Source: Neisseria sp. (GTDB taxonomy: Bacteria; Pseudomonadota; Gammaproteobacteria; Burkholderiales; Neisseriaceae). Taken from it: a stretch of DNA of 64,000 nucleotides. Positions 31,559 to 45,016 of this stretch are shown in pieces (position 1 is the first letter of the stretch; every line of letters begins with the position of its first letter). Under the pieces are notes generated by a model. That model did no database searches. It was given only the letters and a program-made list of their open reading frames with translations, and was not told where the DNA came from. The stretch is from contig NZ_JAUMUI010000004.1 of the NCBI RefSeq assembly GCF_030530745.1, forward strand, positions 24,159 to 88,158, in the 5' to 3' direction. The translations under genes were made by a program, and so were the position numbers.

Positions 31559-31657
31559 TTTCAGACGGCCTCTGTGTTGCAGACTTTAAAATAAAAAATC
31601 AGGCCGTCTGAAAAAAAACAGCAGGATGCGTTTTGTTTTTCAGACGGCCTGATGCGT

Positions 31658-32221: not shown

Positions 32222-32280
32222 TCAATCGGGTTCCGTAAGTGTTGATGAAAAACGGCGGTCAGTATATCAAATTTGCCCGC

Positions 32281-32748
32281 TTAATGCTTGCTTTCTTCAC
32301 TATCGGGCAGGGTAGCAATGGCTTGGGTGAACTCTGAAACGTCGTTGAAGCTTTTATAAACCGACGCAAAACGCACATAAGCCACCTGATCGATTTTCGC
32401 CAGTTCTTCCATCGCCATCTCGCCGACAAGCCGCGACGATACTTCTTTATGCCCCAGCCGGTACAGGCGCTGTTCGATAAGGGCGACGGTGTCGTCTATG
32501 GTTTCTGCGTCTATCGGGCGTTTGTGCAGCGCGCGCTCCAAACTGGTGCGCAGTTTGTGGGGGTTGAACGCCACGCGGCTGCCGGTGCTTTTGATAATCT
32601 GCGGCATACGCATTTCCACCGTTTCAAACGTGCCGAAACGCTGCCCGCAGGCGGGGCAGCGGCGGCGGCGGCGGATGCTGTTGGTTTCTTCCAAAAGCCG
32701 CGAGTCGGTAACCTGGGTGTTTGGGTTGTGGCAGAAAGGGCATTTCAT
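32281..32748 (-). CDS. nrdR: Transcriptional repressor NrdR
   Basis: MKCPFCHNPNTQVTDSR...CPACGQRF zinc ribbon + ATP-cone; start moved to MKCPF. Confidence 0.85.
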   Translation of the reverse strand: MKCPFCHNPNTQVTDSRLLEETNSIRRRRRCPACGQRFGTFETVEMRMPQIIKSTGSRVAFNPHKLRTSLERALHKRPIDAETIDDTVALIEQRLYRLGHKEVSSRLVGEMAMEELAKIDQVAYVRFASVYKSFNDVSEFTQAIATLPDSEESKH

Positions 32749-32851
32749 AAGCGTTGCACGGCGGGTTGCTGTCGGGGGGATTGTAGCGTAAACATACTGC
32801 TGCCGTATAGTTTGCAGGCCTCGGGCCGTCTGAAACGCCGGAGTGCGGTTT

Positions 32852-34189
32852 TCAAAACAGCAGCATGCCCACTTTGCGTATTTTCTCTTCGTCATTCAAT
32901 ACCCCCGCGTTTTGCAGCAGCTGCAGGTAGGATTGGATATAGGTGTATTTGGCCTCGGCGAGTTTTTGCTCTGCGTCGGCTTTTTCCTGTTGTGCCTGAG
33001 TTTCTTCAAGGTTGTTGCGCACGCCGACCTGACGCCCCAGCCGTGTGGCTTCCAGTTTGGCGCGGTTGGTTTCGAGCAGGCGCTGCTGGGCGAGCGTTTG
33101 GATTTTGCTGCTGCGGGTGGTTTGATAGGCCTGCCTTACCGCCAGCCGCACTTTGCGCTCCGTTGCGGTGAGCAGGTCTTTATTCTGCATTTCGCGCGAA
33201 GCGGCCTCGCGGATCTGGCTGGAGATTTTGCCGCCGCTGAAAAGCGGCATACTGAGCTGGAAGTTTACCGTACCGCCTTTGCTGCGGTAGGTTTGATCGA
33301 AGCTTTCACCGAAATAATCCTGGCTGCGGTGGGTATTGCGGTCGTCCTGATAGCCGCCGCTTACGGTGAGCGTGGGCATACGGCTGCCTTTGGCGGCTTT
33401 GAACGCCTGTTTTGCATCTTCGAGGGTTTTGCGCTGCAGCTGCCATTCGGGATTGTGCCGCTCGGCCAGCGCCTGCCATTCCCGTTCTTCCGATTCGCCG
33501 AGCAGGTCGGCCAGCGCCTTATCGTTTTTTACCGGGCTGATTTGCTGCGGATCCAGCCCGGTCAGGTTGGCCAGCGTGTTTTCGGCCACCTGAAGCTGGG
33601 TGAGCGCGTCGATTTCTTTGGCAAGGGCCGCATCGTAGCCGGATTTGGCCTCGTGGGTGTCCAGAATTGTTGCCGCCCCCTGCCGGAACATTTCCTGCGC
33701 CCGCTCGAGCTGCCGGGAATAAGCGGCTTTTTCGTCGGCGATGGCGGCCAGCTTGTCTTTATTCAGCAGAATATCGAAATAGGCCTTGGCCACGTTTATT
33801 TTCAATTCGTCTTCACTGCCGCTCAGGCGCGCATCGGCCATTTCGGCGGCGATTTTTCCCTGTTTGTATTGGGCGAAGCGGGTTCTGTCGAACAAAACCT
33901 GCGAAGCCTGCACGTTCCAGCCGCGGCTTTTCGTGTTGGAAGAGAGCGAATAGGGCTGGCGCTGGTAGGTGGCGTTGGCATTAACCTGCGGCAGCAGCTC
34001 CGCACGCGCCTGGTTCTTTTTTTCCGATTCCGCATCACGCTCGTGTTTGGCAGCAGAAAAATCGGCCGAATAGTTCACAGCGGCCCGCCATGCGTCCAGC
34101 AGATTGAAGGCGTGGGAAGCGGCGGGCAGCGCGAGCATGCACGAAGAAAACAGCAGGGGCAGTGTTTTAAATTTGGCCATGGCAGACAA
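32852..34189 (-). CDS. tolC: TolC-family outer-membrane channel (type I secretion / efflux)
   Basis: Signal peptide ending AASHA, two OEP repeats, coiled-coil Q/L/A-rich segments. Confidence 0.8.
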   Translation of the reverse strand: MSAMAKFKTLPLLFSSCMLALPAASHAFNLLDAWRAAVNYSADFSAAKHERDAESEKKNQARAELLPQVNANATYQRQPYSLSSNTKSRGWNVQASQVLFDRTRFAQYKQGKIAAEMADARLSGSEDELKINVAKAYFDILLNKDKLAAIADEKAAYSRQLERAQEMFRQGAATILDTHEAKSGYDAALAKEIDALTQLQVAENTLANLTGLDPQQISPVKNDKALADLLGESEEREWQALAERHNPEWQLQRKTLEDAKQAFKAAKGSRMPTLTVSGGYQDDRNTHRSQDYFGESFDQTYRSKGGTVNFQLSMPLFSGGKISSQIREAASREMQNKDLLTATERKVRLAVRQAYQTTRSSKIQTLAQQRLLETNRAKLEATRLGRQVGVRNNLEETQAQQEKADAEQKLAEAKYTYIQSYLQLLQNAGVLNDEEKIRKVGMLLF

Positions 34190-34585
34190 TGATAATGAAA
34201 TATTAACCTGACTTAGAGTGTTTTCGGGCCGGATAGTTTAATTTTTTTGAAATTTACCCTGTATGGATATTCGAAAAGTATATTGCAGGCCGCAAGATAA
34301 TTTTCAATATATTTTTTCAGGAAACTGTTTTTGGAAAAACGGTTTACATTCACATAGGGTTACCCGAATGTTTTAGAGGCGGGCATGCCGTGTTTTTCGG
34401 AAAACCTCCTTTTTATTCTTACGGATAACGGTAAATAACTTATTTTATTATCATATAGATTAATTGATTGGATTTTTCGGGAACCAAACAAAACCTAACG
34501 AACAAAACGGCGGGCGGAGTTGTCGTAAAACCACGGAGCCCGGCAACGGGTTTCCGGGTTTTTATTAATTTTCAAGGAGACTGTA

Positions 34586-34759
34586 ATGAAACAACTCAAC
34601 CAGCATGAGATGCAGCAGGTGGCCGGCGGCTACAGATGGAGCGATTTCCGCAAAGACTGGAAAGACTTCTGGAAAGAAATGGGCGGCGGTTTCTCCAAGG
34701 CCGGCGACAACCTCGGCGACGCATGGAAAAACGCCCGCGATGCGGTTCGTAACAATTAA
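34586..34759 (+). CDS. Double-glycine-leader peptide (class II microcin-like) MKQLNQHEMQQVAGG|YRWSDFRKDWKDFWKEMGGGFSKAGDNLGDAWKNARDAVRNN
   Basis: 15-aa leader matching the GG-leader consensus (L..E...V.GG); RBS aaggag 7 nt upstream; core 42 aa, Trp/Lys-rich. Confidence 0.7.
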   Translation: MKQLNQHEMQQVAGGYRWSDFRKDWKDFWKEMGGGFSKAGDNLGDAWKNARDAVRNN

Positions 34760-34906
34760 GCGGTATTTGGAATTTCGGAGTAGGCGGATTCTGAACCGAA
34801 CGGTTGGTTTCTGCTTTCCGAATCGGGAGGTATCCGTCCTTCCTTAACCGTGTAGCAGCGAAAATTATTGCTGTTTTTAATTTTAACCTTAAAAAGGAGA
34901 TTTGAT

Positions 34907-35158
34907 ATGCAGGCTGTAGTTTTGCAAAACAGTTTCGGCCGTGAACTGGCTGTGAATGAGTTGATAATGGTTGCCGGCGGAGGGTGTAATTGGAAAGATT
35001 TTGGTAAAGCTACCGTGGGAGGTGCTATTGCTACCGGAACAGCTGGTGCAATCGCAGGAGCCGCATTTGGTCCCGGTGCCCTTGCTGGTGGAGCCGTCGG
35101 TGCTGCTGGAGGTGCTGTAGGGGGAGCTCTTGCTTATGGGGCAACATGCGGATGGTGA
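34907..35158 (+). CDS. GG-leader glycine-rich microcin precursor (...ELAVNELIMVAGG|GCNWKDFGKATVGG...GATCGW)
   Basis: RBS aaaaaggag; Gly/Ala-rich core with two Cys (possible disulfide), resembling colicin V/microcin L-type cores. Confidence 0.7.
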   Translation: MQAVVLQNSFGRELAVNELIMVAGGGCNWKDFGKATVGGAIATGTAGAIAGAAFGPGALAGGAVGAAGGAVGGALAYGATCGW

Positions 35159-35245
35159 TTTAGTTATTTATCAGTAAGTATCCGGATGCGGTTTCCTGCA
35201 CAGCAGGAAGCCGTATCTTTCCAGTATTTTCACGAGGTTAGAACC

Positions 35246-35419
35246 ATGAAAAAGTCCGTTATGAGAAAGACAGTTCGTTACGCTTTTTTTTTCTCGGCCT
35301 CAGCATTGATCTTGTATCTTCTCGGAAACGGTTTATTGCAGACGTTAATTACATGTGCGGTTGCTACTTTTATATTTGCTTTTGTAATGGAAAGATTTAT
35401 TGAGAAAAGAGAGCTTTAG
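35246..35419 (+). CDS. Small two-TM membrane protein (candidate microcin immunity protein)
   Basis: MKKSVMRKTVRYAFFFSASALILYLLGNGLLQTLITCAVATFIFAFVMERF; RBS gaggtt. Confidence 0.45.
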   Translation: MKKSVMRKTVRYAFFFSASALILYLLGNGLLQTLITCAVATFIFAFVMERFIEKREL

Positions 35420-35495
35420 TAAAGCACGCGTTGTCTGAAGTTCCTGATATTGCGTGCGAGGCTCTGCAGGCACTGTCTATAGAGATGGGAAAGTT

Positions 35496-35708
35496 ATGAC
35501 TAAAACCATTCTCTCGGTATGCATGTATCTTTTTATTGCTTTTACCGTAGCAACGCCGTTGGCTTGGCTTTATGAGTCTTTTACCGACGGGTTTGCATGG
35601 AAAAGCACGGTAGGTTTTTCGGTATCGTTTTTGGTGTTTCTCGGATTCAGCCTGTTTTCATACTGGTTTACCTATCATTATCTTAAGTTTGAAAGGAGTA
35701 AATCATGA
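35496..35708 (+). CDS. Small two-TM membrane protein (candidate immunity protein), translationally coupled to the next peptide gene
   Basis: MTKTILSVCMYLFIAFTVATPLAWLY...; stop TGA overlaps the ATG at 35705. Confidence 0.45.
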   Translation: MTKTILSVCMYLFIAFTVATPLAWLYESFTDGFAWKSTVGFSVSFLVFLGFSLFSYWFTYHYLKFERSKS

Positions 35709-35854
35709 AAGAATTGGATATTTATGAAGCAAAGAAAGTTACGGGCGGCCGACGGTTGGTTCCGTTTCCTCCTCCTCCTCCGGATTTTCGGACGCGTATA
35801 GCGGCCTATTACATCGGTCGGATTGCAGGTAAAGCCCTTAAAGCCCTTAAATAA
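35705..35854 (+). CDS. GG-leader peptide MKELDIYEAKKVTGG|RRLVPFPPPPPDFRTRIAAYYIGRIAGKALKALK
   Basis: Leader consensus; cationic core with a poly-Pro segment. Confidence 0.6.
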   Translation: MKELDIYEAKKVTGGRRLVPFPPPPPDFRTRIAAYYIGRIAGKALKALK

Positions 35855-35954
35855 CCCTGTCGGTGCATACCTGTATTTACTATTGCCATCCGGCCGGATT
35901 TGTATGGATATGAATTCAAGGCCGTCTGAACTTTTTTAATTTTGGAGGATTGTT

Positions 35955-36173
35955 ATGAAACATCTGAATCAATATGAGTTGGAACAGGTATCAGGAGGGT
36001 ACTTAACAGACTACGGTAGAAAGTACGTTAGAGAGATTGCTATACGGGCAGCTGTCTGGCGTACTACAAGGGCTCTGAACTGGTTGGCGAAGAAACGCGC
36101 ATCCAAAATTTACGACTGTAATGAAGCAAGCGTAGGGTGTGCCTCGGGCACGCACGCGCCGCATGAACCTTGA
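35955..36173 (+). CDS. GG-leader peptide MKHLNQYELEQVSGG|YLTDYGRKYVREIAIRAAVWRTTRALNWLAKKRASKIY... (C-terminal tail read through an inserted palindromic repeat)
   Basis: RBS ggagga; the last ~17 codons (NEASVGCASGTHAPHEP) lie within the repeat element that sits after the stop codon in other cassettes. Confidence 0.6.
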   Translation: MKHLNQYELEQVSGGYLTDYGRKYVREIAIRAAVWRTTRALNWLAKKRASKIYDCNEASVGCASGTHAPHEP

Positions 36174-36215
36174 TGCCGCGTGCGCGGCTCTGCTGCCGTC
36201 CCCTACGTTTGCTTT
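36117..36215. repeat. Palindromic repeat family 'gtagggtgtgcggc...cgggcacgcacgc...gaaccttga...cgcgtgcgcggctttgccgcacaccctgcg' (copy a)
   Basis: Nested inverted repeats; family has >=6 copies within 3.7 kb. Confidence 0.55.
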
Positions 36216-36247
36216 CCAACCGAAATTTACCTAAAGGAGTATGCAGT

Positions 36248-36349
36248 ATGAGAGAAATCAGTATTAAAGACCTCAAACAGATTTCCGGCGGTTTTGCCCC
36301 AAGGAAATCATGGCTTGACAGATTGACGGAAAGAGTAGTGCTTTGGTAG
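36248..36349 (+). CDS. GG-leader peptide MREISIKDLKQISGG|FAPRKSWLDRLTERVVLW
   Basis: Leader consensus; 18-aa core. Confidence 0.5.
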   Translation: MREISIKDLKQISGGFAPRKSWLDRLTERVVLW

Positions 36350-36354
36350 GAGGA

Positions 36355-36477
36355 ATGATGCGAAAATTGAATTTGCATGAAATGAAACAGGTTTCCGGCG
36401 GCCTTGTCGGCGGGCCGGTTGCAGAAGTAAAACGGAAGGTAAGCAGAGCAGTACGCAAGCTGTGGCCTTGGGATTAG
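36355..36477 (+). CDS. GG-leader peptide MMRKLNLHEMKQVSGG|LVGGPVAEVKRKVSRAVRKLWPWD
   Basis: RBS taggagga; leader consensus. Confidence 0.55.
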   Translation: MMRKLNLHEMKQVSGGLVGGPVAEVKRKVSRAVRKLWPWD

Positions 36478-36575
36478 TTGTCTGAACCTTCAATACCGCG
36501 CCGCGTGTGCGGCTTTGCGCACACCCTGCGAAAACGGTTTTCAGACGGCCTTGTTTTACAGTTAAGGAGAAGGTG

Positions 36576-36764
36576 ATGAAAGAATTGAAAAAATCCGAAG
36601 CGTGTTATGTGTCCGGCGGCGGTGTGGTGTTTTTCCGCGATACGGCCGGCAGGGTGGTCGGCGAGCCGAGCCGGCAGGACGTGCTGAAGGGAAAGGTGAG
36701 GCTTTCCACACCCAGCGGCGGCAGCAATATCACTACTTTGGCATTTAAGCATTCGCGGTATTGA
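36576..36764 (+). CDS. GG-leader peptide MKELKKSEACYVSGG|GVVFFRDTAGRVVGEPSRQDVLKGKVRLSTPSGGSNITTLAFKHSRY
   Basis: RBS aaggagaagg; leader consensus. Confidence 0.55.
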   Translation: MKELKKSEACYVSGGGVVFFRDTAGRVVGEPSRQDVLKGKVRLSTPSGGSNITTLAFKHSRY

Positions 36765-36791
36765 TGGTTTATTTTGAAAGGATTAGGAATC

Positions 36792-36929
36792 ATGAAAGAG
36801 CTGAATAGAAACGAGATTGAAAACGTATCAGGCGGTAATATTTTCGACTGGTTGTTTGGCAAAAAGAAGCCCAAAAGCGGATTTGATGGGGGAGGTGGGT
36901 TTGGCGGCGGCGGCGGCGGTTCTTGGTAA
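36792..36929 (+). CDS. GG-leader peptide MKELNRNEIENVSGG|NIFDWLFGKKKPKSGFDGGGGFGGGGGGSW
   Basis: Leader consensus; Gly-rich C-terminal tail. Confidence 0.6.
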   Translation: MKELNRNEIENVSGGNIFDWLFGKKKPKSGFDGGGGFGGGGGGSW

Positions 36930-37026
36930 AAGACACACAGAGGCGCCGACCAAACCGAAAGCAGACAAAAGCATAAGCTGTATTTATTCTCTTCGGATCT
37001 GCCGGCTTTAAGTTTGGAGGATTATT

Positions 37027-37188
37027 ATGAAACATCTGAATCAATATGAATTGGAACAAGTATCGGGAGGGGCAACTGTAGGCTCTGCATTAAAAGTAGC
37101 GGTTGAGGCTGCTGTGAGGGCTATCAGAGACGCACAAAGGCGAAGGCCACGCATCCCCACTCTCCCCGTTCATCGGTGGAAGCGCTAA
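37027..37188 (+). CDS. GG-leader peptide MKHLNQYELEQVSGG|ATVGSALKVAVEAAVRAIRDAQRRRPRIPTLPVHRWKR
   Basis: RBS ggagga; leader identical to the 35955 gene, different core (cassette shuffling). Confidence 0.6.
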   Translation: MKHLNQYELEQVSGGATVGSALKVAVEAAVRAIRDAQRRRPRIPTLPVHRWKR

Positions 37189-37189
37189 G

Positions 37190-37270
37190 TAAGCGCAGGG
37201 TGTGCCCCCGGCACGCACGCCGTCCGAACCTTGATACCGCGTGCGCGGCTTCGCCGCACACTCTGCCGAT
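37190..37270. repeat. Palindromic repeat family copy (c)
   Basis: taagcgcagggtgtgcccccggcacgcacgccgtccgaaccttgataccgcgtgcgcggcttcgccgcacactctgcc. Confidence 0.5.
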
Positions 37271-37304
37271 TGTTCTTATATTCTTTAACCTTAAAGATTT
37301 CATC

Positions 37305-37427
37305 ATGAAAGAATTGAAAAACAAAGAGTTTCATCAGGTAGGAGGCAGCTTCAGGATTCCTGCCGTGCCTTTGCCCCGACTGCCTTGGCTGCCTAACCGG
37401 TTACCGTGGCCGCCGATACGTGCTTAG
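37305..37427 (+). CDS. GG-leader Pro/Trp-rich peptide MKELKNKEFHQVGG|SFRIPAVPLPRLPWLPNRLPWPPIRA
   Basis: Leader consensus; core 26 aa with 9 Pro, 2 Trp and 4 Arg. Confidence 0.55.
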   Translation: MKELKNKEFHQVGGSFRIPAVPLPRLPWLPNRLPWPPIRA

Positions 37428-37606
37428 CCGAAACTTCAAGACATGCTTACATCCGAAACGGCGGAAAGATTGGAAACGGAAAGTTCCGACGATCGGGTGT
37501 CGGGTTTATGCGCGGGCGGCCGGCTTTTGATGAATGGCTGTCGAAGTGGCAATAACGGAGGATTTCCCTCCACAGAGTATATTTTTATTTTATAGGAGTA
37601 TTTGTT

Positions 37607-37750
37607 ATGAAAAAATTGGATCAGCATGAATTGAACCAGGTAGCAGGCGGACTTGTAGGCTGGCATCCCGGATGGAAAGAGATAAACAGGAGAAGATTGG
37701 AGCATTATCTTAAGCATGGCAAATTTCCGCCGCATATGCCTCTCTTCTGA
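37607..37750 (+). CDS. GG-leader peptide MKKLDQHELNQVAGG|LVGWHPGWKEINRRRLEHYLKHGKFPPHMPLF
   Basis: RBS taggag; leader consensus. Confidence 0.55.
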   Translation: MKKLDQHELNQVAGGLVGWHPGWKEINRRRLEHYLKHGKFPPHMPLF

Positions 37751-37835
37751 GCGTCCGGTAACCAGTTGGTTTTGCCTGAAGCCGCAGGGTTTCAAACCAT
37801 CACAGTTTTTTGTTTTTATACGAAAGGATTAGATC

Positions 37836-38006
37836 ATGAAAGAGCTGTACGAAAAAGAGCTCCGGCAGGTAGCCGGAGGCGCCGCATCTTCAAACTCTTG
37901 GCCTTGGCCGTGGCTGCCTCTATTGCCGGCATTGCCGAAGATACCGCTGCCGCGGTTCCCGGGGCGTACCCTTCCCGAGCCGCCCCGGGGAGCAGATTTA
38001 AAATAA
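37836..38006 (+). CDS. GG-leader Pro/Trp-rich peptide MKELYEKELRQVAGG|AASSNSWPWPWLPLLPALPKIPLPRFPGRTLPEPPRGADLK
   Basis: RBS aaaggatt; WPWPW motif. Confidence 0.5.
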   Translation: MKELYEKELRQVAGGAASSNSWPWPWLPLLPALPKIPLPRFPGRTLPEPPRGADLK

Positions 38007-38300
38007 ACAACTGTAGGGTGTGCGGCTTTGCTGCCTACGTTATCGGAGGCCGTCTGAAAAGTTTTTCAGACGGCCTTGTTTTTAATTTATGGTAATTAAA
38101 AGATATATGAAAATATCAAGTCGCATGTATTAAAACATATACATACCCTTATGGGGTAGATAAAATTTAATTATTCTTTTCAAAAAATAAACCGGTTTGC
38201 CGGAACAAAGTTTGGGTTATGCTTGTCAAACATAACGAGAACGCCTGATAAAGGCCGTTTCTCTTTTCTTTTAACTTTTCATTTTTAAGAGGTATGATTT

Positions 38301-38465
38301 ATGAAAGAACTGAATCAGTTTGAATTGGAAAAAGTTTCTGGTGGTTTTCTTCCGGCGTTGGCCGCTATACCGATCGGTTGGAAAATTTTTGGTGCTTCAG
38401 CTGCTGTCGGTGTTACGGCAGGAACCGCAGTAGGTCTTAATCGTGTCAACCGAGAAAAGAAATAA
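38301..38465 (+). CDS. GG-leader peptide MKELNQFELEKVSGG|FLPALAAIPIGWKIFGASAAVGVTAGTAVGLNRVNREKK
   Basis: RBS aagagg; hydrophobic Gly/Ala-rich core (membrane-active type). Confidence 0.65.
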   Translation: MKELNQFELEKVSGGFLPALAAIPIGWKIFGASAAVGVTAGTAVGLNRVNREKK

Positions 38466-38514
38466 CTTATTTTTAATTAATTAATGAAAAGTATGTAACT
38501 TATAAGGACTGGTT

Positions 38515-38607
38515 ATGAGCGACAAAACTATTATGCTTATTGTATCCATATCTATGATAATAGGATTGTTGGTTGGAACCTTTGTAGGGTTGCATAGCCT
38601 CAAATAA
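38515..38607 (+). CDS. 30-aa single-TM peptide MSDKTIMLIVSISMIIGLLVGTFVGLHSLK (candidate immunity peptide)
   Basis: Homologous to the 31-aa peptide at 39343..39438; sits immediately after a microcin gene. Confidence 0.45.
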   Translation: MSDKTIMLIVSISMIIGLLVGTFVGLHSLK

Positions 38608-38644
38608 ATGATCTATCTTAAATTTAAAGAAAGGATGCTGTATT

Positions 38645-38815
38645 ATGCAAATGAAGCATGTTCAGACTTTGGGTAATGTTCGTGAATTGGAAATGCATGA
38701 ATTAGAAAGTATTTCTGGTGGCTTCCCGCCTGCACTTATAGCAGCAGGGTATGTTGCTGCTGGTTTTGGTACTGGTTTTGGCGTTTCTTACGGTCTTGCC
38801 CGCTGGCTTGGTTAA
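38645..38815 (+). CDS. GG-leader peptide (26-aa leader ...RELEMHELESISGG|FPPALIAAGYVAAGFGTGFGVSYGLARWLG)
   Basis: RBS aaaggatg; hydrophobic Gly-rich core. Confidence 0.6.
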   Translation: MQMKHVQTLGNVRELEMHELESISGGFPPALIAAGYVAAGFGTGFGVSYGLARWLG

Positions 38816-38945
38816 GCGAGCAAGCGTAGGGTGTGCGGCCTCGGGCACGCACGCATTATTTCGAACCTTGAACTGCGTGCGCGGCTTTGCCGCACACCCT
38901 GCGTTATCAGAAGCCGTCTGAAAAGTTTTTCAGACGGCTTTTTTA
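38816..38945. repeat. Palindromic repeat family copy (e) plus inverted DUS pair
   Basis: gcaagcgtagggtgtgcggcctcgggcacgcacgc...gaaccttgaactgcgtgcgcggctttgccgcacaccctgcg...gccgtctgaaaagtttttcagacggc. Confidence 0.55.
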
Positions 38946-39164
38946 ATTTTTGGTAATTAAAAATCATATGAAAACATCAAGTCACATGTATTAAAACATA
39001 TACATACCCTTACAGGGTGGATAAAAGTTGATTATTCTTTTCAAAAAAAAATTAAACTTATTTTAGAAACTAAATTTATTCTGTTCTGTCAATAATAGCG
39101 AGAACGCCTGATAAAGGCTGTTTCTCTTTTCTTGTAAATTTTTATTTTTTAAGAGGTATGATTT

Positions 39165-39320
39165 ATGAAAGAACTGAATCAGTTTGAATTGGAACAGATT
39201 TCCGGCGGCATCGCGCCCGCTATTATCGTTGGCTACCTTGCTTTGGGAGGTGTCGGCTTTACAGGCGGCATAGCCACGGGAGTGAACCGTAAAAATCGGG
39301 GGGATAAATCGGCTCTCTGA
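39165..39320 (+). CDS. GG-leader peptide MKELNQFELEQISGG|IAPAIIVGYLALGGVGFTGGIATGVNRKNRGDKSAL
   Basis: Leader and ~200-bp upstream region near-identical to the 38301 cassette; core diverged. Confidence 0.65.
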   Translation: MKELNQFELEQISGGIAPAIIVGYLALGGVGFTGGIATGVNRKNRGDKSAL

Positions 39321-39342
39321 TTAATTTTAAGGTAATACTATT

Positions 39343-39438
39343 ATGAATACCAATACTGCTATTATAATAGGATTAATGTTTTTATTTGCGGTAGGGTTTC
39401 TTGCCGGAATTTTTGTAGGTCTGAACAGGCTTAATTAA
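39343..39438 (+). CDS. 31-aa single-TM peptide MNTNTAIIIGLMFLFAVGFLAGIFVGLNRLN (candidate immunity peptide)
   Basis: Paralog of 38515..38607. Confidence 0.45.
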   Translation: MNTNTAIIIGLMFLFAVGFLAGIFVGLNRLN

Positions 39439-39456
39439 ATCCAAGGAGGATTATTT

Positions 39457-39648
39457 ATGAACAATATGACACATTTTGTTGATGCACGTGAGCTGGAATT
39501 GCACGATTTGGAAAATATTGCCGGAGGCATTGCCTTTGTCCCCGCCTTGATTGCCGGTGCCAAAGTGGCCGGAGGCGCAGTTGCTGCCGGAGCAGCATTG
39601 TATGGCGGCTTCAAACTTGGTGACTATCTTGGTTACAAGCATGGTTAA
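39457..39648 (+). CDS. GG-leader peptide (...ARELELHDLENIAGG|IAFVPALIAGAKVAGGAVAAGAALYGGFKLGDYLGYKHG)
   Basis: RBS aaggagga; Gly/Ala-rich hydrophobic core. Confidence 0.65.
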   Translation: MNNMTHFVDARELELHDLENIAGGIAFVPALIAGAKVAGGAVAAGAALYGGFKLGDYLGYKHG

Positions 39649-39654
39649 TTAAGC

Positions 39655-39780
39655 AGGCGTAGGGTGTGTGCCCTCGGGCATACACGCGTTGTTTTGAACC
39701 TTGTTAATACCGCGTGCGCGGCTTTGCCGCACACCCTGCGTTATCGGAGGCCGTCTGAAAAATTTTTCAGACGGCCTTGC
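39655..39780. repeat. Palindromic repeat family copy (f) plus inverted DUS pair
   Basis: agcaggcgtagggtgtgtgccctcgggcatacacgcg...gaaccttgttaataccgcgtgcgcggctttgccgcacaccctgcg...ggccgtctgaaaaatttttcagacggcc. Confidence 0.55.
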
Positions 39781-39974: not shown

Positions 39975-41267
39975 ATGGCTGGAAACGACAGTTTTTTCCG
40001 CCCGGAAATTTTCGAGGCGAAGAAGAATAAATGGACGGGGCATGTGGTGTTGTCGCGGCCGTTTTCTTTTGTGTTTTTAACGGGCTGTGCGGCGGCGGGG
40101 GCGTTTGCGCTGATTGTGTTCGCCTTTTTCGGCAGCTATACGCGCAAAACCACGGTGGAGGGGCAGCTGCTGCCGGTGTCGGGCCTGGTGCGGGTGTATG
40201 CGCCGGATACGGGCACGGTTACGGCCAAAAGGGTGAACGACGGCGATTATGTGGAGCAGGGCGACGAGCTTTTAACGATTTCTATGCCGCGCTACAGCGG
40301 CGGCGGCGATGTGCGTGCGAAACTGGTTAAAGAGGCGGAGATGAAAAAAGACATGCTGCTGCGCGAAATCGAGCGGCAGAAAAAAGTGCAGAAGGGCGAA
40401 GAGCGCTCGCTCACCGATACGGTGGGCAGGCTGCAGAACCAGCTTGCCGATGTGCGCAGCCAGATCAAGGGGCAGGGCAGACGGGTGGAGCTGGCGGCAC
40501 AGATTATCGAAAAATACCGCCCGCTGCTGAAAAAGGGGTTTATTTCAGAGCAGCAGATGATGGAGTATGAAAACGAGCATCTGAACCAGGTTTCGCAGTT
40601 GGACGCGCTCAAGCGGGAAGAGGCGGGCGTGCTGCGCGAGCTGAACACGCAGAAGCAGACGCTGGCCGACCTGCCCGACAAGCAGGAAACCGAATTGAGC
40701 CAGCTTAACCGCACGGTGTCGGAGCTGAAGCAGGAAGGGTTGAATTTGGATTTGCAGCAGGAGCAGACGGTGCACGCGAGCAAATCGGGCTATGTGAGCA
40801 CTTCTAATGTGGAAGTGGGGCAGCAGGTCAGCCCTTCGCAGCTGCTGCTGAGCATCGTGCCGGGCAAAACCGAGCTGGTGGCGAACTTATATGTGCCCAG
40901 CCGGGCGGCGGGCTTTGTGAAGCCTGAAGATAAAGTGGTGCTGCGCTATCAGGCTTACCCCTATCAGAAATTCGGCCATGCAGAGGGCAGGATTCTTTCG
41001 ATTGCGAAAACGGCCTTGGGCAAGCAGGAGCTGGCAAGCCTGGGCAGCGGCTCGGCCGAGGGCGCAGAAAACCAGATGATACAGGCGCAGGCCAACGAGC
41101 CTGTGTATCTGGTGAGGGTGAAGCTGGACAAGCAGACGATTAAGGTATACGGCGAAGAAAAACCGCTGCAAATCGGCATGGTGGCCGAGGCCGATATTCT
41201 GCACGAGCGCAAAAAGCTTTATGAATGGGTGCTCGACCCGCTTTACAGCATTACAGGCAAGCTTTGA
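39975..41267 (+). CDS. cvaA: HlyD-family membrane fusion protein, CvaA-like (microcin/bacteriocin type I secretion)
   Basis: N-terminus FFRPEIFEAKKNKWTGHVVLSRP parallels CvaA (FRQDALENRKMKWQGRAILLP); single TM, long coiled-coil, C-terminal beta domain. Confidence 0.8.
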   Translation: MAGNDSFFRPEIFEAKKNKWTGHVVLSRPFSFVFLTGCAAAGAFALIVFAFFGSYTRKTTVEGQLLPVSGLVRVYAPDTGTVTAKRVNDGDYVEQGDELLTISMPRYSGGGDVRAKLVKEAEMKKDMLLREIERQKKVQKGEERSLTDTVGRLQNQLADVRSQIKGQGRRVELAAQIIEKYRPLLKKGFISEQQMMEYENEHLNQVSQLDALKREEAGVLRELNTQKQTLADLPDKQETELSQLNRTVSELKQEGLNLDLQQEQTVHASKSGYVSTSNVEVGQQVSPSQLLLSIVPGKTELVANLYVPSRAAGFVKPEDKVVLRYQAYPYQKFGHAEGRILSIAKTALGKQELASLGSGSAEGAENQMIQAQANEPVYLVRVKLDKQTIKVYGEEKPLQIGMVAEADILHERKKLYEWVLDPLYSITGKL

Positions 41268-41477
41268 ACGACGGTATGAAAAAACTGCTTTGCCAAACCG
41301 GCCCGATGGCAATTGCTGCGTTTGTTTATTTGTTTATCAAAAAAACAATCGGGGTTTGTCTATAGGCGCTCAGCGTGTCGTTTTATACGGCTGCATGACT
41401 TCGGGGGCAATTGCCGGATTTTGGTTAAGAAATAAATATTTTCAAGAAAAACGGTAACAGAAAACGCAACCGAGGCT

Positions 41478-41645: not shown

Positions 41646-41765
41646 AGAAAACCATCGGTTATTCAAATAAAATTTAATCTATGTATTTGAAATGCGCCTG
41701 TATGTCAGCCGTCTGAATTTTTCAGACGGCTTAATCCAATTAATAAAACAGGGTTTGAAGAAACT

Positions 41766-43880
41766 ATGAATTATTTGGAACGCCTCTCTTTCGGGTTCGG
41801 CAAAAAGCTGCCCGTAGTATTGCAAACCGAGGTGGCCGAATGCGGTTTGGCCTGCCTGACTGCGGTTGCGGGCTATCACGGTTATCATTCCGATTTGCGC
41901 ACGATGAGGCAGAAATATTCGCTCTCGCAAAAAGGGCTGACGCTGGCCGATATTGTGCGCTTTGCCAATGATTTGAACCTGACTTCGCGCGCGCTGCGGC
42001 TGGATCTGGACGACCTGCCCAACCTGCGCGCGCCCTGTATCCTGCACTGGGATCTGAACCATTTCGTGGTGCTCAAAGAGGTGGTTAAAGACGGCATCAT
42101 GATTATGGATCCCGCCGTGGGAATGCGCAAAATCAGGCAGGAAGAGGTGTCGCAGAAGTTTACCGGCATTGCGCTGGAATTGTGGCCGAACACGCATTTT
42201 GAAAAAAAAGAAGAAAAGAAAAAAGTTAAAATCCTCACGCTGCTCAAAGGCGTTACCGGCGTTAAGCGTTCGTTGGCGCAGGTGCTGCTGCTGGCATTTG
42301 CGCTGGAAATTTTCGGCCTGGTCAGCCCGTTTCTGATGCAGTGGGTTATCGACCATGTGATTGTGTCGGCAGACCGAAACCTTCTGCTGACGCTGGTTTT
42401 GGGCTTCGGCCTGCTGAAAATACTGGAGCAGCTTACCGGCCTTTTGCAGGCGTGGGTAAACATGCACCTGACCACCACGCTGAATGTGCAGTGGAAAGCC
42501 AACATATTCAAAAGGCTGCTCGAGCTGCCCGCCGATTACTTTTCCAAACGCCATCTGGGCGATGTGATTTCGCGCTTCGGGGCCATCGACAATATTCAGG
42601 AAACCTTAACCTCCACCGCCTTTAAAACCATTTTAAGCGGCATTATGGCCGTGTTTACGCTGGTGCTGATGTTTTATTACAGCTGGCTGTTAACGGTGGT
42701 GGTATTGGTTGCGCTGGCTTTGTATGTCATTATCCGCATCGTTGCCTATTATCCGCTGCGCAACGCCACCGAAGAAAACATTGTGCACGATGCCAAGCAA
42801 GACACCTATTTTATGGAAACGGTGCGCGGAATCCACACGGTCAAGCTGTTTGAAAAAAACGAGCAGCGGCACAGCTCGTGGATGACCTTGTTTGTCGATA
42901 CGGTGAATACCGATTTGACCAAACAGAAGCTCACCAATATTTTCGACTTTGCCAACAAACTCCTGTTCGGCATAGAAGGCATATTGATTATCTATCTGGG
43001 CGCCGACAAGATTCTTGCGGGCGGTTTCACCGTGGGCGCGCTCACGGCATTTTGGGCGTATAAAAACCAGTTTGAAGAACGAGTGGGCGAGCTGGTCGAC
43101 CAATACATCAAAATCCGCATGCTGGGTCTGCACGCCGAGCGTCTGGCCGACATCGTGCTCACCGAAACCGAAACGGAAAAAACCAAAGAAATTTATGTTC
43201 CCGAGGTTGAGGGGGACATCGATATTGCGGTGGAAGACGTATCGTTCCGCTATTCCGACACCGAGCCGTATATTCTGAAAAACATCAGCCTGCATATCAG
43301 GCAGGGCGAATCGGTGGCGTTTACCGGCAGCTCGGGCTGCGGCAAAACCACGCTGATGAACATCTTAATCGGCAACCTTGCGCCCGAATCGGGCAAAGTG
43401 CTGGTAAACGGGCACGACATCCACAAACTTTCACCGCGCTTTATCCGCGGGTTGAGCGGCACGGTAACGCAGGATGATGTGTTGTTTGCCGGCTCGATAG
43501 CGGAAAACATCTGCTTTTTCGACGAAACGCCCGACCAGCAGAAGATTATGCAGTGCGCGGCGATGGCGCAGATACACGAAGACATCATGCAGATGACCAT
43601 GGGCTACGAAACCCTGATAGGCGACATGGGCAACGCCCTGTCGGGCGGACAGAAGCAGCGGATTATTCTGGCGCGCGCGCTTTACCGCGAGCCGAAGATA
43701 CTGTTTCTCGACGAGGCGACAAGCCATTTGGATATGGAAAACGAGCGGGCGATCAACGAAAACCTGAAGCGGTTGAACATTACCAAAATCATGGTTGCGC
43801 ACCGCAGGGAAACGATTGAGTCGGCCGACAGGGTGGTGGATATGGAGGCGCTGGCGCACAGGGAGGAGCAGGAAGGGTAG
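41766..43880 (+). CDS. cvaB: Peptidase-C39-domain ABC transporter, CvaB-like (leader-cleaving microcin exporter) copy 1
   Basis: LQTEVAECGLACL (catalytic Cys), PCILHWDLNHFVVL (His), 6 TM, Walker A GSSGCGKTT, signature LSGGQKQR, Walker B ILFLDEATS; high similarity to E. coli CvaB throughout. Confidence 0.85.
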   Translation: MNYLERLSFGFGKKLPVVLQTEVAECGLACLTAVAGYHGYHSDLRTMRQKYSLSQKGLTLADIVRFANDLNLTSRALRLDLDDLPNLRAPCILHWDLNHFVVLKEVVKDGIMIMDPAVGMRKIRQEEVSQKFTGIALELWPNTHFEKKEEKKKVKILTLLKGVTGVKRSLAQVLLLAFALEIFGLVSPFLMQWVIDHVIVSADRNLLLTLVLGFGLLKILEQLTGLLQAWVNMHLTTTLNVQWKANIFKRLLELPADYFSKRHLGDVISRFGAIDNIQETLTSTAFKTILSGIMAVFTLVLMFYYSWLLTVVVLVALALYVIIRIVAYYPLRNATEENIVHDAKQDTYFMETVRGIHTVKLFEKNEQRHSSWMTLFVDTVNTDLTKQKLTNIFDFANKLLFGIEGILIIYLGADKILAGGFTVGALTAFWAYKNQFEERVGELVDQYIKIRMLGLHAERLADIVLTETETEKTKEIYVPEVEGDIDIAVEDVSFRYSDTEPYILKNISLHIRQGESVAFTGSSGCGKTTLMNILIGNLAPESGKVLVNGHDIHKLSPRFIRGLSGTVTQDDVLFAGSIAENICFFDETPDQQKIMQCAAMAQIHEDIMQMTMGYETLIGDMGNALSGGQKQRIILARALYREPKILFLDEATSHLDMENERAINENLKRLNITKIMVAHRRETIESADRVVDMEALAHREEQEG

Positions 43881-44573: not shown

Positions 44574-44927
44574 ATGTTTGAATTGGAAATCCGCGATCTG
44601 GAAGTTGTATCAGGAGGAGGTTGGCCTATTTTGGGAGCCATAGCTGCAGGAGCAGCTAGAGTTGCAAGTACTTCTGCTGCTAGGAATGCAGCTATAGGAG
44701 CAGGTACATATACTGGCTATTCTTATTTAAGCGGTAATGAAATTACGGCTGCAGGAGTTGCAGGAGCTATGGTTGGCGGTTCAGTAGGAGGTGCAATTAA
44801 AAATACAACAGGAGCCGCTATAGCAGGATCGGCTACAGCCGGAGCAACAGAGGGATTGGTTAACGGTAACAGCCCCCTGCTTAATAGGGATAAAAATGAT
44901 TATGATGCAGGGGGTGGCGAGTATTAA
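44574..44927 (+). CDS. GG-leader Gly/Ala-rich microcin precursor MFELEIRDLEVVSGG|GWPILGAIAAGAARVAS... (102-aa core)
   Basis: RBS aaaggaaagtaatt; leader consensus; colicin V/microcin-type Gly-rich core. Confidence 0.65.
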   Translation: MFELEIRDLEVVSGGGWPILGAIAAGAARVASTSAARNAAIGAGTYTGYSYLSGNEITAAGVAGAMVGGSVGGAIKNTTGAAIAGSATAGATEGLVNGNSPLLNRDKNDYDAGGGEY

Positions 44928-45016
44928 GTTTGAAAATCGAAAACTTTGTTAAATATATTGTTTTATGCCGTCTGAAAACTTCAGACGGCATTTTTCAGAT
45001 ATATTCCAGAATGTTT

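What the first reader, a model, noticed from the sequence alone, without database searches (positions are those of the whole stretch)
35705..38006. Pro/Trp-rich cores behind GG leaders resemble eukaryotic proline-rich antimicrobial peptides
Three predicted mature peptides are unusual for microcins: RRLVPFPPPPPDFRTRIAAYYIGRIAGKALKALK, SFRIPAVPLPRLPWLPNRLPWPPIRA and AASSNSWPWPWLPLLPALPKIPLPRFPGRTLPEPPRGADLK. They lack Cys and Gly and are rich in Pro, Trp and Arg. This is the composition of indolicidin, tritrpticin and Bac/apidaecin-type PrAMPs, which enter cells via SbmA and target the ribosome or DnaK. A bacterial GG-leader/T1SS-delivered PrAMP-like toxin would be a new microcin class.
Basis: inference. 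Interest (0 to 1): 0.7.

Follow-up and report, generated by a model that had tools for sequence, protein, structure and literature searches.

The report
Orphan proline-rich peptides in Neisseria bacteriocin array
Three short proline-rich peptide genes with export leaders do sit in a commensal Neisseria bacteriocin-export locus, but they occur only in this strain lineage, and at least two may be poorly made or out-of-frame remnants, so a new "animal-like" antibiotic peptide class is possible but unproven.

Summary
The three ORFs exist exactly as described: P1 35705-35854, P2 37305-37427 and P3 37836-38006. They are 3 of about 19 double-glycine-leader cassettes (34586-39648) placed between a TolC-like gene and HlyD plus a C39-peptidase ABC exporter, in an AG-DUS Neisseria.

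Pro enrichment in P2 and P3 (32% and 27%) is far above what base composition gives. "Lack Gly" is wrong for P1 and P3. Trp is modest at 0-8%. No PRP motif is present.

No homologue of any core was found in protein databases, metagenomes or 160 related loci, apart from near-identical copies of this strain. Reality is graded:
- **P1:** strong ribosome-binding site, start overlapping the upstream stop, called by a gene finder.
- **P3:** moderate ribosome-binding site, but "WPWPWLPLLPALP" is the +1 reading of a well-coded "LALAVAASIAGIA".
- **P2:** essentially no ribosome-binding site.

Related Neisseria arrays carry other Pro/Trp-rich leader peptides at the same position. Two of these are recurrent families: one shows purifying selection, and the other keeps its Pro-rich frame across two species and has a natural frameshift allele.

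Best reading: fast-evolving cargo cassettes of a class II microcin-type exporter. The PrAMP mechanism is untested and the motifs do not fit. Interest is moderate.

The parts
32852..34189 (-). TolC-like outer-membrane factor, divergent from the array
   Evidence: Pfam OEP, E=1.8e-61. Syntenic in N. musculi, N. oralis, N. wadsworthii and N. sicca 4320 loci.
34492..34567 (+). 5' leader of the array operon, with a terminator-like hairpin
   Evidence: Hairpin 34535-34554 followed by a T-run. Sub-threshold Rfam c-di-GMP-I-UAU hit: 24.3 bits against a gathering score of 65.9. CTAACGAACAAA box shared with L002 and L003.
34586..34759 (+). First array peptide (YRWSDFRKDWKDFW...), conserved across Neisseria arrays
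   Evidence: 17 related loci match by blastn. dN 0.13 against dS above 1 versus L003 and L052.
34907..35158 (+). Gly/Ala-rich microcin-like peptide with a long GG leader
   Evidence: Translation. Composition typical of class II microcins.
35246..35708 (+). Two small membrane-protein ORFs (35246-35419 and 35496-35708), candidate immunity proteins. The second overlaps P1's ATG (ATGA).
   Evidence: Translations. 35484-35689 is 86% identical to L002, where it lies next to a Gly-rich microcin.
35705..35854 (+). P1: GG leader, then PFPPPPPDF, then a cationic C-terminal segment (net +7)
   Evidence: SD:aSD -8.2 kcal/mol. Called as a 49-aa gene on Logan contigs. Contains (TCC)5 and (AAAGCCCTT)2 repeats.
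35955..37188 (+). Six further non-canonical GG-leader cassettes: 35955, 36248, 36358, 36576, 36792, 37027
   Evidence: Only 36576 is conserved elsewhere. 35955 reads into a REP-like element.
37305..37427 (+). P2: leader ending VGGS, then a 25-aa core with 32% Pro (net +4)
   Evidence: SD:aSD -0.9 kcal/mol. Upstream region and leader are paralogous to cassette 36576 and to P3 (D6 and D11). Not called as a gene on the identical Logan contig.
37607..37750 (+). GG-leader cassette between P2 and P3 (LVGWHPGWKEINRRR...)
   Evidence: Leader is 79% identical to L002:7300, whose core is RFLPLPPPGFWKWKRFAWSR.
37836..38006 (+). P3: canonical leader, then a 41-aa core with 27% Pro and 3 Trp. It is the last gene before the terminator.
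   Evidence: SD:aSD -5.4 kcal/mol. The alternative +2 frame reads RIFKLLALAVAASIAGIAEDTAAAV with a better codon score.
38046..38077 (+). DUS-pair hairpin terminator that ends the first transcription unit
   Evidence: 14-bp stem plus a T-run. It is the first DUS-pair hairpin downstream of 34586; the scan lists only three 5-8-pair terminator-like hairpins before it (34854-34875, 35746-35758 within P1, and 37878-37860 on the minus strand).
38301..39648 (+). Canonical class IIb-like GG peptides (38301, 38645, 39165, 39457) with 30-31-aa membrane ORFs (38515-38607 and 39343-39438)
   Evidence: TIGR03949 E=3.6e-8 for 38301. Translations.
39975..41267 (+). HlyD-family membrane-fusion protein
   Evidence: Pfam HlyD_3 and HlyD_D23.
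41766..43880 (+). Peptidase-containing ABC transporter (PCAT) 1
   Evidence: Pfam Peptidase_C39, ABC_membrane and ABC_tran. Motifs AECGLACL, NHFVVL and MDPA are present.
44574..47131 (+). 117-aa GG-leader peptide (44574-44927) and a second PCAT (44930-47131)

Best explanation
P1, P2 and P3 are strain-lineage-specific cargo cassettes in a hypervariable array of about 19 double-glycine-leader peptide genes. The array feeds a TolC / HlyD / C39-peptidase ABC (PCAT) type I exporter in a commensal AG-DUS Neisseria.

Each cassette has a ribosome-binding site, a conserved 15-aa leader and a short, rapidly replaced core. REP-like elements and DUS hairpins lie between cassettes.

If translated, the precursor is recognised through the leader and cleaved by the C39 domain: after GG in P1 and P3, most likely after G-S in P2. 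It is then exported as an unmodified linear cationic peptide of 25-41 aa.

The three belong to a compositional class that occupies the 3' part of the first operon in related Neisseria arrays. That class is short, cationic, Pro/Trp-rich and lacks an adjacent immunity gene.

- **Likelihood of real products (inference):** P1 is probably a real product, P3 possibly, and P2 is probably poorly or not translated.
- **Proposed function (inference):** secreted competition peptides, or accessory peptides, whose action does not need a dedicated immunity protein.
- **Shown:** ORFs, leaders, exporter, synteny, orphan status, and the recurrence of this peptide class in relatives.
- **Inferred:** translation, cleavage, export and activity.
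For: - The ORFs and leaders are present.
- The exporter set is complete, with catalytic C39 motifs.
- The OEP | array | HlyD | PCAT layout is conserved in N. musculi, N. oralis, N. wadsworthii and N. sicca 4320.
- No DUS-pair hairpin terminator lies between 34586 and the one at 38046, and only three short (5-8-pair) terminator-like hairpins are listed there, so P1-P3 probably sit in one transcription unit.
- P1 has a strong SD (-8.2 kcal/mol) and an ATGA overlap with the upstream ORF. It is called as a gene on Logan contigs.
- The ten central cores are jointly longer than random open frames (P=0.011) and enriched in Trp (4.6% against 2.0% expected, P=0.002).
- Related arrays carry Pro/Trp-rich GG peptides at the same position.
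- Family B (xxEGGC...FPWxRWF / ...IPLPRFFWRW) shows dN/dS of about 0.4, and dN=0 with dS=0.105 in close pairs.
- Family A (LILSKPVYGISPSLPVKPIPLW...) is kept in the Pro-rich frame across N. oralis-type loci and N. musculi.
- P2 and P3 are more alike in the annotated frame than composition predicts (shuffle P=0.016). In the shared PLPR block all four codons differ only synonymously.
Against: - No homologue of any core was found among 5.8e9 proteins, among 1.84e9 representatives with a profile, in 241 M metagenome records, or in 160 related loci by blastn or tblastx. Selection on these three ORFs therefore cannot be measured.
- P2 lacks an SD.
- P2 and P3 were not called on the identical Logan contig.
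- Codon scores are better in the +2 frame for P2 and P3, though this test also fails on canonical peptides.
- 0 of 12 Arg codons are CGC, against 62% in host genes.
- P3's alternative frame also shows marginal similarity to Gly/Ala cores (P=0.017).
- A natural frameshift allele (L081) and a cassette with ATT in place of the ATG start (L002:7043) occur in related arrays.
Confidence: 0.5

Rival explanations
1. P2 and P3, and possibly other central cassettes, are decayed or out-of-frame remnants. An intact leader module was joined by indel or recombination to core DNA that evolved in another frame. The Pro/Trp richness is then a by-product of reading Ala/Leu-rich GCC/TTG codons one base off, and little or no peptide is made.
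For: - TTG GCC TTG GCC GTG GCT GCC TCT ATT GCC (LALAVAASIA) read +1 gives TGG CCT TGG CCG TGG CTG CCT... (WPWPWLP).
- The +2 frame scores +0.25 against -0.50 for P3, and +0.08 against -0.57 for P2.
- P3's alternative frame resembles Gly/Ala cores (P=0.017).
- P2's SD is degenerate compared with its paralogue 36576: TAAAGA against AAGGAG, -0.9 kcal/mol.
- No CGC Arg codons are used.
- Neither ORF was called by a gene finder.
- Each core length is individually compatible with chance.
- A frameshift allele (L081) and a cassette with ATT in place of ATG (L002:7043) show that such decay may occur in these arrays.
- Frame switching in GG-peptide genes is documented in Neisseria napC (PMC11798529).
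Against: - The alternative frame of P3 has no in-frame leader or start, and it runs on into the REP/DUS terminator with no stop. P3's own frame stops just before that element.
- P2's +2 frame has a stop after 14 codons.
- P2-P3 similarity lies in the annotated frame and involves synonymous differences.
- The codon test also misassigns bona fide peptides 34907, 38301 and 38645.
- The same composition class is conserved and selected in relatives.
Confidence: 0.3
2. The mature peptides are PrAMP- or indolicidin-like microcins. They cross the target's inner membrane through SbmA or YejABEF-type importers and block the ribosome or DnaK. Self-immunity is unnecessary because the producer lacks the uptake route.
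For: - P2 and P3 have 27-32% Pro and net charge +3 to +4, comparable to apidaecin and oncocin.
- No immunity-like ORF lies next to P2 or P3.
- Relatives carry more PrAMP-like strings, such as L002:6550 ...EIPLPRPIPRPELM and L005:8010 ...KPTPIPRPIDPWVP, and tritrpticin-like C-termini (FPWMRWF, FPWWLR).
Against: - No PRP triplet is present in P1-P3.
- Arg fraction is 7-16% against about 31% in Bac7(1-35).
- Trp is 0-8% against 23-38% in tritrpticin and indolicidin (sequences from PMC6017362 and from general knowledge).
- P1 is only 18% Pro, and its C-terminal segment is weakly amphipathic (muH P=0.09).
- Composition alone does not predict mechanism.
- Production of the peptides is itself unproven.
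Confidence: 0.08
3. The peptides are exported but are not bacteriocins. They could be Nap-like cationic peptides that promote autolysis or lyse host cells, or inducer or pheromone peptides that regulate the locus.
For: - In N. gonorrhoeae, three cationic GG-motif peptides (NapA-C) showed no antimicrobial activity. They promote stationary-phase autolysis, and NapC lyses erythrocytes (PMC11798529).
- P1-P3 are short and cationic, and P2 and P3 have no adjacent immunity-like ORF.
Against: - No histidine kinase or response regulator lies next to the array.
- The nap island has a different make-up, with a stand-alone C39 peptidase, a FapF-like protein and 38% GC, and is largely absent from commensals.
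- There is no sequence similarity to anything characterised.
Confidence: 0.12

Closest known systems
Class II microcins / double-glycine-leader class II bacteriocins exported by PCAT-HlyD-TolC (e.g. MccV; surveys PMC9746304, PMC12219008)
   Same: 15-aa leader ending GG or GS. C39-peptidase ABC transporter, HlyD-type fusion protein and TolC-like channel in one locus. Unmodified small cargo. Several cargo genes per locus.
   Different: The cores are Pro-rich and cationic rather than Gly/Ala/Ser-rich and hydrophobic. There is no match to bacteriocin core families. P2 and P3 have no adjacent immunity gene. Activity is unknown. The 2025 survey text does not mention proline, tryptophan or Neisseria.
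Pro/Trp-rich GG-leader peptides of related Neisseria arrays: family A (LILSKPVYGISPSLPVKPIPLW.../L002:6550), family B (xxEGGC...IPLPRFFWRW / FPWMRWF), L002:7300, L005:8010
   Same: Same locus type, same position in the array, same leader type, and the same short Pro/Trp-rich composition. They share a short IP-x-(I/V)-PLPR(F/L) string with P2 and P3.
   Different: Homology is not established: shuffle-controlled P is 0.02-0.26. Families A and B recur in several loci and family B shows purifying selection. P1-P3 are singletons.
Eukaryotic proline-rich AMPs (Bac7, oncocin, apidaecin) and Trp-rich AMPs (indolicidin, tritrpticin)
   Same: Linear, Cys-free and cationic. Pro content of P2 and P3 matches apidaecin and oncocin (PMC6017362).
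   Different: No PRP repeats, lower Arg and much lower Trp. The precursor and export route are unrelated. Uptake and target are untested.
Neisseria autolysis peptides NapA-C (PMC11798529)
   Same: Same genus. Cationic peptides with GG motifs, processed by a C39 peptidase. Frame-dependent cationic and non-cationic variants exist.
   Different: The Naps sit in a different island (napP/napF, 38% GC) found in pathogenic species and are predicted alpha-helical. There is no sequence similarity, and this locus has a full PCAT/HlyD/TolC exporter.

Membership tests
Class II microcin / GG-leader bacteriocin | N-terminal leader of about 15 aa ending GG, GA or GS, with hydrophobic residues at -4, -7, -12 and -15 | tested here: met
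   P1 has V, A, L, M at those positions. P2 has V, F, L, M if cut after G-S. P3 has V, L, L, M. Leader-HMM scores are 17.9-22.7 bits, above the conserved cassette 36576 at 13.6.
Class II microcin / GG-leader bacteriocin | Cognate PCAT with a catalytic C39 domain, plus a membrane-fusion protein and an outer-membrane factor | tested here: met
   Pfam Peptidase_C39, ABC_membrane and ABC_tran on two genes, plus HlyD and OEP. Cys, His and Asp motifs are present.
Class II microcin / GG-leader bacteriocin | Dedicated immunity gene next to the toxin gene | tested here: not met
   No membrane-protein ORF lies next to P2 or P3. P1 follows two small membrane ORFs, but by comparison with L002 these more plausibly serve the Gly-rich peptide 34907.
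Class II microcin / GG-leader bacteriocin | Core related to known bacteriocin or microcin families, or of typical Gly/Ala/Ser-rich hydrophobic type | tested here: not met
   No NCBIfam or Pfam core hit for P1-P3. Only a sub-threshold leader hit for P3. Gly+Ala is 8-21%.
Class II microcin / GG-leader bacteriocin | Peptide is produced and kills or inhibits related bacteria | not testable with these tools
   Needs peptidomics and inhibition assays.
Proline-rich AMPs (Bac7 / oncocin / apidaecin type) | At least about 25% Pro and net cationic | tested here: met
   P2 has 32% Pro and net +4. P3 has 27% Pro and net +3. P1 has only 18% Pro, so it does not meet this.
Proline-rich AMPs (Bac7 / oncocin / apidaecin type) | Repeated PRP / Pro-Arg motifs with high Arg density (definition from general knowledge and PMC6017362) | tested here: not met
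   No PRP triplet in any of the three. Arg counts are 5/34, 4/25 and 3/41, against 11/35 in Bac7(1-35).
Proline-rich AMPs (Bac7 / oncocin / apidaecin type) | SbmA/YejABEF-dependent uptake and a ribosome or DnaK target | not testable with these tools
   Needs MICs on transporter mutants and in vitro translation assays.
Trp-rich AMPs (indolicidin / tritrpticin) | Very high Trp fraction (3-5 of 13 residues) together with Arg or Lys | tested here: not met
   Trp counts are 0/34, 2/25 and 3/41.
Neisseria Nap peptides | Encoded in the nap island (napP C39 peptidase, napF FapF-like, low GC) | tested here: not met
   The locus has PCAT, HlyD and OEP, and the array region is 45-51% GC. Island description from PMC11798529.
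Neisseria array families A and B | Sequence homology of the core | tested here: inconclusive
   Best shuffle-controlled P values are 0.023-0.027 for P3 against L002:6550, 0.26 for P2 and 0.12-0.21 for P1. An exact IPLPRF 6-mer is shared by P3 and family B.
Modified RiPP precursors with GG leaders | A modifying enzyme gene in the cluster | tested here: not met
   Between 34.2 and 47.1 kb there are only small peptide or membrane ORFs and exporter genes. Neighbouring genes are a flavin reductase and a MarR regulator.

The most novel reading that the evidence does not exclude
Commensal Neisseria export, through their PCAT/HlyD/TolC systems, an undescribed class of unmodified linear Pro/Trp/Arg-rich microcins. 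The class would include the selected xxEGGC...FPWxRWF family, the recurrent LILSKP...PLPPIRQEVM family, and fast-evolving PLPR-type members such as P2 and P3. They would act like animal Pro- or Trp-rich host-defence peptides, by non-lytic entry and an intracellular or envelope target. That would explain why no immunity genes accompany them.
Probability: 0.15. Interest if true: 0.75.

Novelty: new variant of a known kind. Interest (0 to 1): 0.42.

Why it matters
If these peptides are made and active, GG-leader/PCAT systems in a Gram-negative mucosal commensal would deliver cargo with the chemistry of animal host-defence peptides. That would be convergent evolution. It would also be a source of narrow-spectrum anti-Neisseria leads, possibly without the receptor and immunity logic of classical microcins.

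Small cassettes of this kind are almost never annotated. Even the recurrent families A and B are virtually absent from a 5.8-billion-protein database. Their diversity is therefore invisible to protein-based mining.

If P2 and P3 are instead frameshift relics, the locus is a clear example of birth-and-death and frame-switching in bacteriocin cassette arrays. It is also a caution against reading function from the composition of orphan small ORFs.

Tried and rejected
- **Exact-sequence look-ups.** P3, the PCAT and 37027 are not on record. P1 and the NrdR neighbour retrieved only the same strain (100% identity over 9.6 kb), 99.4-99.9% identical fragments, and one 96.9% strain whose contig stops at 35135, before P1. 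Look-ups with neighbouring peptides gave nothing new.
- **Protein homology.** Searches with P3, and with P1 + P2 + the P3 alternative frame, gave nothing. A profile of P2, P3 and 37027 against 1.84e9 representatives returned only a spurious repeat protein.
- **Nucleotide searches.** A metagenome scan with back-translated core 8-mers gave 600 pattern matches, none a relative. blastn and tblastx against all fetched loci returned only low-complexity noise.
- **Codon-usage frame test.** It favoured the +2 frame for P2 and P3, but it also misassigned canonical peptides. I treat it as suggestive only.
- **Family B profile search.** A first script (HMM of family B against the cores) crashed, and a second hmmsearch call failed on incompatible options, so no profile result was obtained. 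I replaced it with the pairwise shuffle tests.
- **Shuffle-controlled alignments.** They could not separate P3 (P=0.027) from its alternative frame (P=0.017).
- **Family libraries.** Pfam, NCBIfam and PADLOC gave no core hits.
- **Rfam.** Only a sub-threshold hit upstream of the array.
- **Literature.** No paper was found describing Pro-rich class II microcins or these commensal-Neisseria arrays.
- **Phase variation.** I considered it and rejected it. No homopolymer of 7 nt or more lies in or near the three ORFs, and P1 has only an in-frame (TCC)5 repeat.

Full report
**1. What is there**

The window is a Neisseria chromosome segment. It carries about 88 copies of the 10-mer DNA uptake sequence, mostly in the AG-DUS form AGGCCGTCTGAA.

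The three ORFs exist exactly as quoted:
- P1 35705-35854, 49 aa
- P2 37305-37427, 40 aa
- P3 37836-38006, 56 aa

They are 3 of about 19 plus-strand ORFs between 34586 and 39648 that start with a roughly 15-aa double-glycine leader of the MKELNQ-ELEQVSGG type. These leaders are DNA-level paralogues of one another.

The array is flanked upstream by a divergent TolC-like gene (32852-34189). Downstream lie HlyD (39975-41267) and a C39-peptidase ABC transporter (41766-43880). Further on are another GG peptide, a second PCAT and a large RTX protein. Both PCATs keep the Cys, His and Asp motifs of active C39 domains.

The OEP | array | HlyD | PCAT layout is shared with N. musculi, N. oralis, N. wadsworthii and N. 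sicca 4320. Their exporter genes are 73-92% identical at the protein level.

**2. Checking the observation**

| Peptide | Length (aa) | Pro | Trp | Gly | Net charge |
|---|---|---|---|---|---|
| P1 | 34 | 18% | 0 | 2 | +7 |
| P2 | 25 | 32% | 2 | 0 | +4 |
| P3 | 41 | 27% | 3 | 2 | +3 |

None of the three has Cys. "Lack Gly" is therefore wrong for P1 and P3, and P1 is not Trp-rich.

Pro enrichment in P2 and P3 is far beyond the 5% expected from base composition (P<1e-4).

P2's leader ends VGGS. The conserved hydrophobic register at -4, -7, -12 and -15 fits cleavage after G-S, so the mature peptide would begin FRIP.

**3. Are they genes?**

*Ribosome-binding sites.* Pairing energies with the anti-SD are P1 -8.2, P3 -5.4 and P2 -0.9 kcal/mol. 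P2 is the weakest of 17 cassettes. Its paralogue 36576 has AAGGAG where P2 has TAAAGA.

*P1.* Its ATG overlaps the stop of an upstream membrane-protein ORF (ATGA).

*Independent gene calls.* A Logan contig 100% identical to window 28705-38311 had P1, 34586, 36576 and 36792 called as genes. P2, P3, 37027 and 37607 were not called.

*Transcription unit.* The first DUS-pair hairpin terminator after 34586 is at 38046-38077. The scan lists only three short (5-8-pair) terminator-like hairpins before it, one of them inside P1. All three ORFs therefore probably lie in one transcription unit.

*Open-frame lengths.* Core lengths are individually compatible with chance open frames (P=0.11-0.26). The ten central cores are jointly longer than chance (P=0.011). 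They are also Trp-enriched, at 4.6% against 2.0% expected (P=0.002).

**4. The frame problem**

P3's striking WPWPWLPLLPALP is TGG CCT TGG CCG TGG CTG CCT CTA TTG CCG GCA TTG CCG. Read one base earlier, the same DNA is TTG GCC TTG GCC GTG GCT GCC TCT ATT GCC GGC ATT GCC, which encodes LALAVAASIAGIA. That is a typical hydrophobic bacteriocin-like string written in the host's preferred codons (GCC 54% of Ala).

Points favouring the alternative frame:
- A codon log-odds score favours it for P3 (+0.25 against -0.50) and for P2 (+0.08 against -0.57). The same test misassigns several canonical peptides, so it is only suggestive.
- None of the 12 Arg codons in the three cores is CGC, which makes up 62% of Arg codons in host genes.

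Points favouring the annotated frames:
- The alternative frame of P3 has no leader or start. It runs without a stop into the REP/DUS terminator, whereas P3's own frame stops just before that element.
- P2's +2 frame has an internal stop.
- P2 and P3 resemble each other in the annotated frame beyond composition: IPAVPLPRLPWLPNRLPWPP against LPKIPLPRFP--GRTLPEPP (shuffle P=0.016). The four PLPR codons differ only synonymously.
- Cassette 37027 ends with a similar PRIPTLPVHRW string.

Shuffle-controlled comparison with all other cores gives P=0.027 for P3 and P=0.017 for its alternative frame. The two readings cannot be separated from this sequence alone.

**5. Comparative evidence**

No relative of any of the three cores was found in:
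- a 5.8-billion-protein database
- 1.84 billion representatives searched with a profile, where the only hit was a spurious repeat protein
- 241 million metagenome records scanned with back-translated 8-mers
- 160 related loci searched by blastn and tblastx

Only the 34586 and 36576 peptides are conserved across related arrays.

Absence from protein databases is weak evidence. Even the recurrent families described below are almost missing there. P1 occurs identically in two further sequencing runs, but those contigs are 99.4-99.9% identical to the window and carry no information on selection.

**6. The class recurs in relatives**

Related arrays carry other Pro/Trp-rich GG-leader peptides in the same central position:
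- Family A: LILSKPVYGISPSLPVKPIPLWEDGDGMYPLPPIRQEVM in N. oralis-type loci, and LVSLSYPPSLLDWLDKLPIIIRNPRIPPGREIPLPRPIPRPELM in N. musculi.
- Family B: FGEGGCTTIPLPRFFWRW, ITEGGCVLPVINFPWMRWF, FAEGGCVPRIFGFPWRIWF and IGEGGCVPKIRWPW.
- Singletons: RFLPLPPPGFWKWKRFAWSR, TNLFSWENILRLQKQNLIFPWWLR and GFWDDWFDRWKPTPIPRPIDPWVP...

Family B shows purifying selection. Core dN is 0.28 against dS 0.69 in a distant pair, and dN is 0 against dS 0.105 in close pairs.

Family A keeps the Pro-rich frame across species. One metagenomic allele (L081) has a 1-nt insertion that converts it to an unrelated sequence. N. musculi has a cassette with ATT in place of ATG.

Short Pro/Trp-rich exported peptides are therefore a real, recurrent and fast-turning-over feature of these arrays. 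The same arrays also show a frameshift allele and a possible lost start codon.

P3 shares an exact IPLPRF with family B, encoded with different codons. Homology of P1-P3 to families A and B is not established (P=0.02-0.26).

**7. Mechanism**

- *Best-supported:* leader-directed cleavage by the C39 domain and export through PCAT, HlyD and the TolC-like channel, giving unmodified linear cationic peptides. This follows from established knowledge of class II microcin and PCAT systems plus the locus content. It is not shown here.
- *Modification:* no modifying enzyme gene is present between 34.2 and 47.1 kb.
- *Immunity:* no immunity-like ORF accompanies P2 or P3.
- *PrAMP or indolicidin analogy:* it rests on composition only. 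There is no PRP motif, and Arg and Trp densities are well below those families (PMC6017362).
- *Precedent in the genus:* cationic GG-motif peptides in N. gonorrhoeae (NapA-C) had no antibacterial activity. They promote autolysis and haemolysis, and they include frame-dependent variants (PMC11798529).

**8. Verdict**

My probabilities for the competing readings:

| Reading | Probability |
|---|---|
| Genuine fast-evolving cargo cassettes (P1 likely, P3 possible, P2 doubtful) | about 0.5 |
| P2 and P3 are out-of-frame or decayed relics | about 0.3 |
| Nap-like or signalling role | about 0.12 |
| PrAMP-like mechanism | about 0.08 |

Novelty: a new variant of a known kind, namely class II microcin-type cargo of unusual composition. 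Interest is moderate. It would be high if peptidomics confirmed production and activity, especially for the recurrent families in related species.

Noticed in passing
L052:7512-7616, L092:5057-5158, L084:4575-4688, L099:5535-5639, L002:7476-7565 (and about 10 more loci): A conserved family of 14-22-aa mature GG-leader peptides with an N-terminal xxEGGC and a Trp/Arg/Phe-rich C-terminus (IPLPRFFWRW, FPWMRWF). It shows purifying selection (dN/dS about 0.4). It is essentially unannotated in protein databases.
   Followed up: partly
L003:6818-6982, L087, L090, L093, L096, L002:6550-6732, L081:8700-8891: A Pro-rich GG-leader family (LILSKPVYGISPSLPVKPIPLW...PLPPIRQEVM) is kept in frame in N. oralis-type loci and in N. 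musculi. Allele L081 has a 1-nt insertion that gives a completely different core, so it is a natural frameshift variant.
   Followed up: yes
window 34492-34567: The 5' leader of the array operon has a terminator-like hairpin and T-run 19 nt before the first ATG. It gives a sub-threshold Rfam hit to the c-di-GMP-I-UAU riboswitch (24.3 bits; gathering 65.9). A CTAACGAACAAA box is shared with N. musculi and N. oralis. It may be an attenuator; riboswitch identity is unproven.
   Followed up: partly
window 41766-43880 and 44930-47131: The two PCAT genes are 83% identical in DNA overall, yet their C-terminal ~290 residues are identical in translation. This suggests recent gene conversion between the paralogues.
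   Followed up: partly
window 41278-41730: About 500 nt are inserted between HlyD and PCAT1 relative to N. musculi, where the two genes abut. The insert holds two small membrane-protein ORFs (41278-41458 and 41479-41646) and a DUS-pair hairpin. These are candidate immunity genes.
   Followed up: no
window 36124-36196, 37187-37257, 38015-38040, 38828-38900, 39661-39737: REP/MITE-like elements with inverted arms AGGGTGTGCGGC / GCCGCACACCCT follow many cassettes. ORF 35955 reads through into one of them, giving the C-terminus ...NEASVGCASGTHAPHEP. They may drive cassette shuffling.
   Followed up: partly
window 36248-36349: The leader MREISIKDLKQISGG matches that of family B cassettes (L052, L002:7476). 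The core (FAPRKSWLDRLTERVVLW) has diverged straight after the shared TTTGCC, so it may be a decayed or frameshifted family B member.
   Followed up: partly
window 36465-36473, 37899-37907; L002:7553-7561: The tripeptide WPW is encoded by the identical 9-mer TGGCCTTGG, which uses the host-rare Pro codon CCT. It occurs at the C-terminus of cassette 36358, at the start of P3's Pro/Trp run, and at the C-terminus of N. musculi IGEGGCVPKIRWPW.
   Followed up: no
window 35765-35779 and 35830-35850: P1 contains an in-frame (TCC)5 trinucleotide repeat that encodes the poly-Pro run, and a 9-nt tandem (AAAGCCCTT)2 that encodes KALKALK. Either could vary in copy number between strains.
   Followed up: no
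L002:7043-7162: The N. musculi cassette homologous in its leader to window 36792 has ATT in place of ATG. Its core is TNLFSWENILRLQKQNLIFPWWLR, with a tritrpticin-like FPWWLR end. It is either a pseudogene or uses a non-canonical start.
   Followed up: no
window 49025-54550: A 1841-aa RTX-repeat protein (HemolysinCabind, with a weak Reprolysin-like metalloprotease hit) is encoded just downstream of the two PCAT systems.
   Followed up: no
window 663-2834 and 3310-3780: A CheA-like histidine kinase (Hpt plus HATPase_c) and a CheX-like phosphatase are present. This is noteworthy in a genus regarded as non-flagellate, and is presumably a pilus/Chp-type chemosensory system.
   Followed up: no
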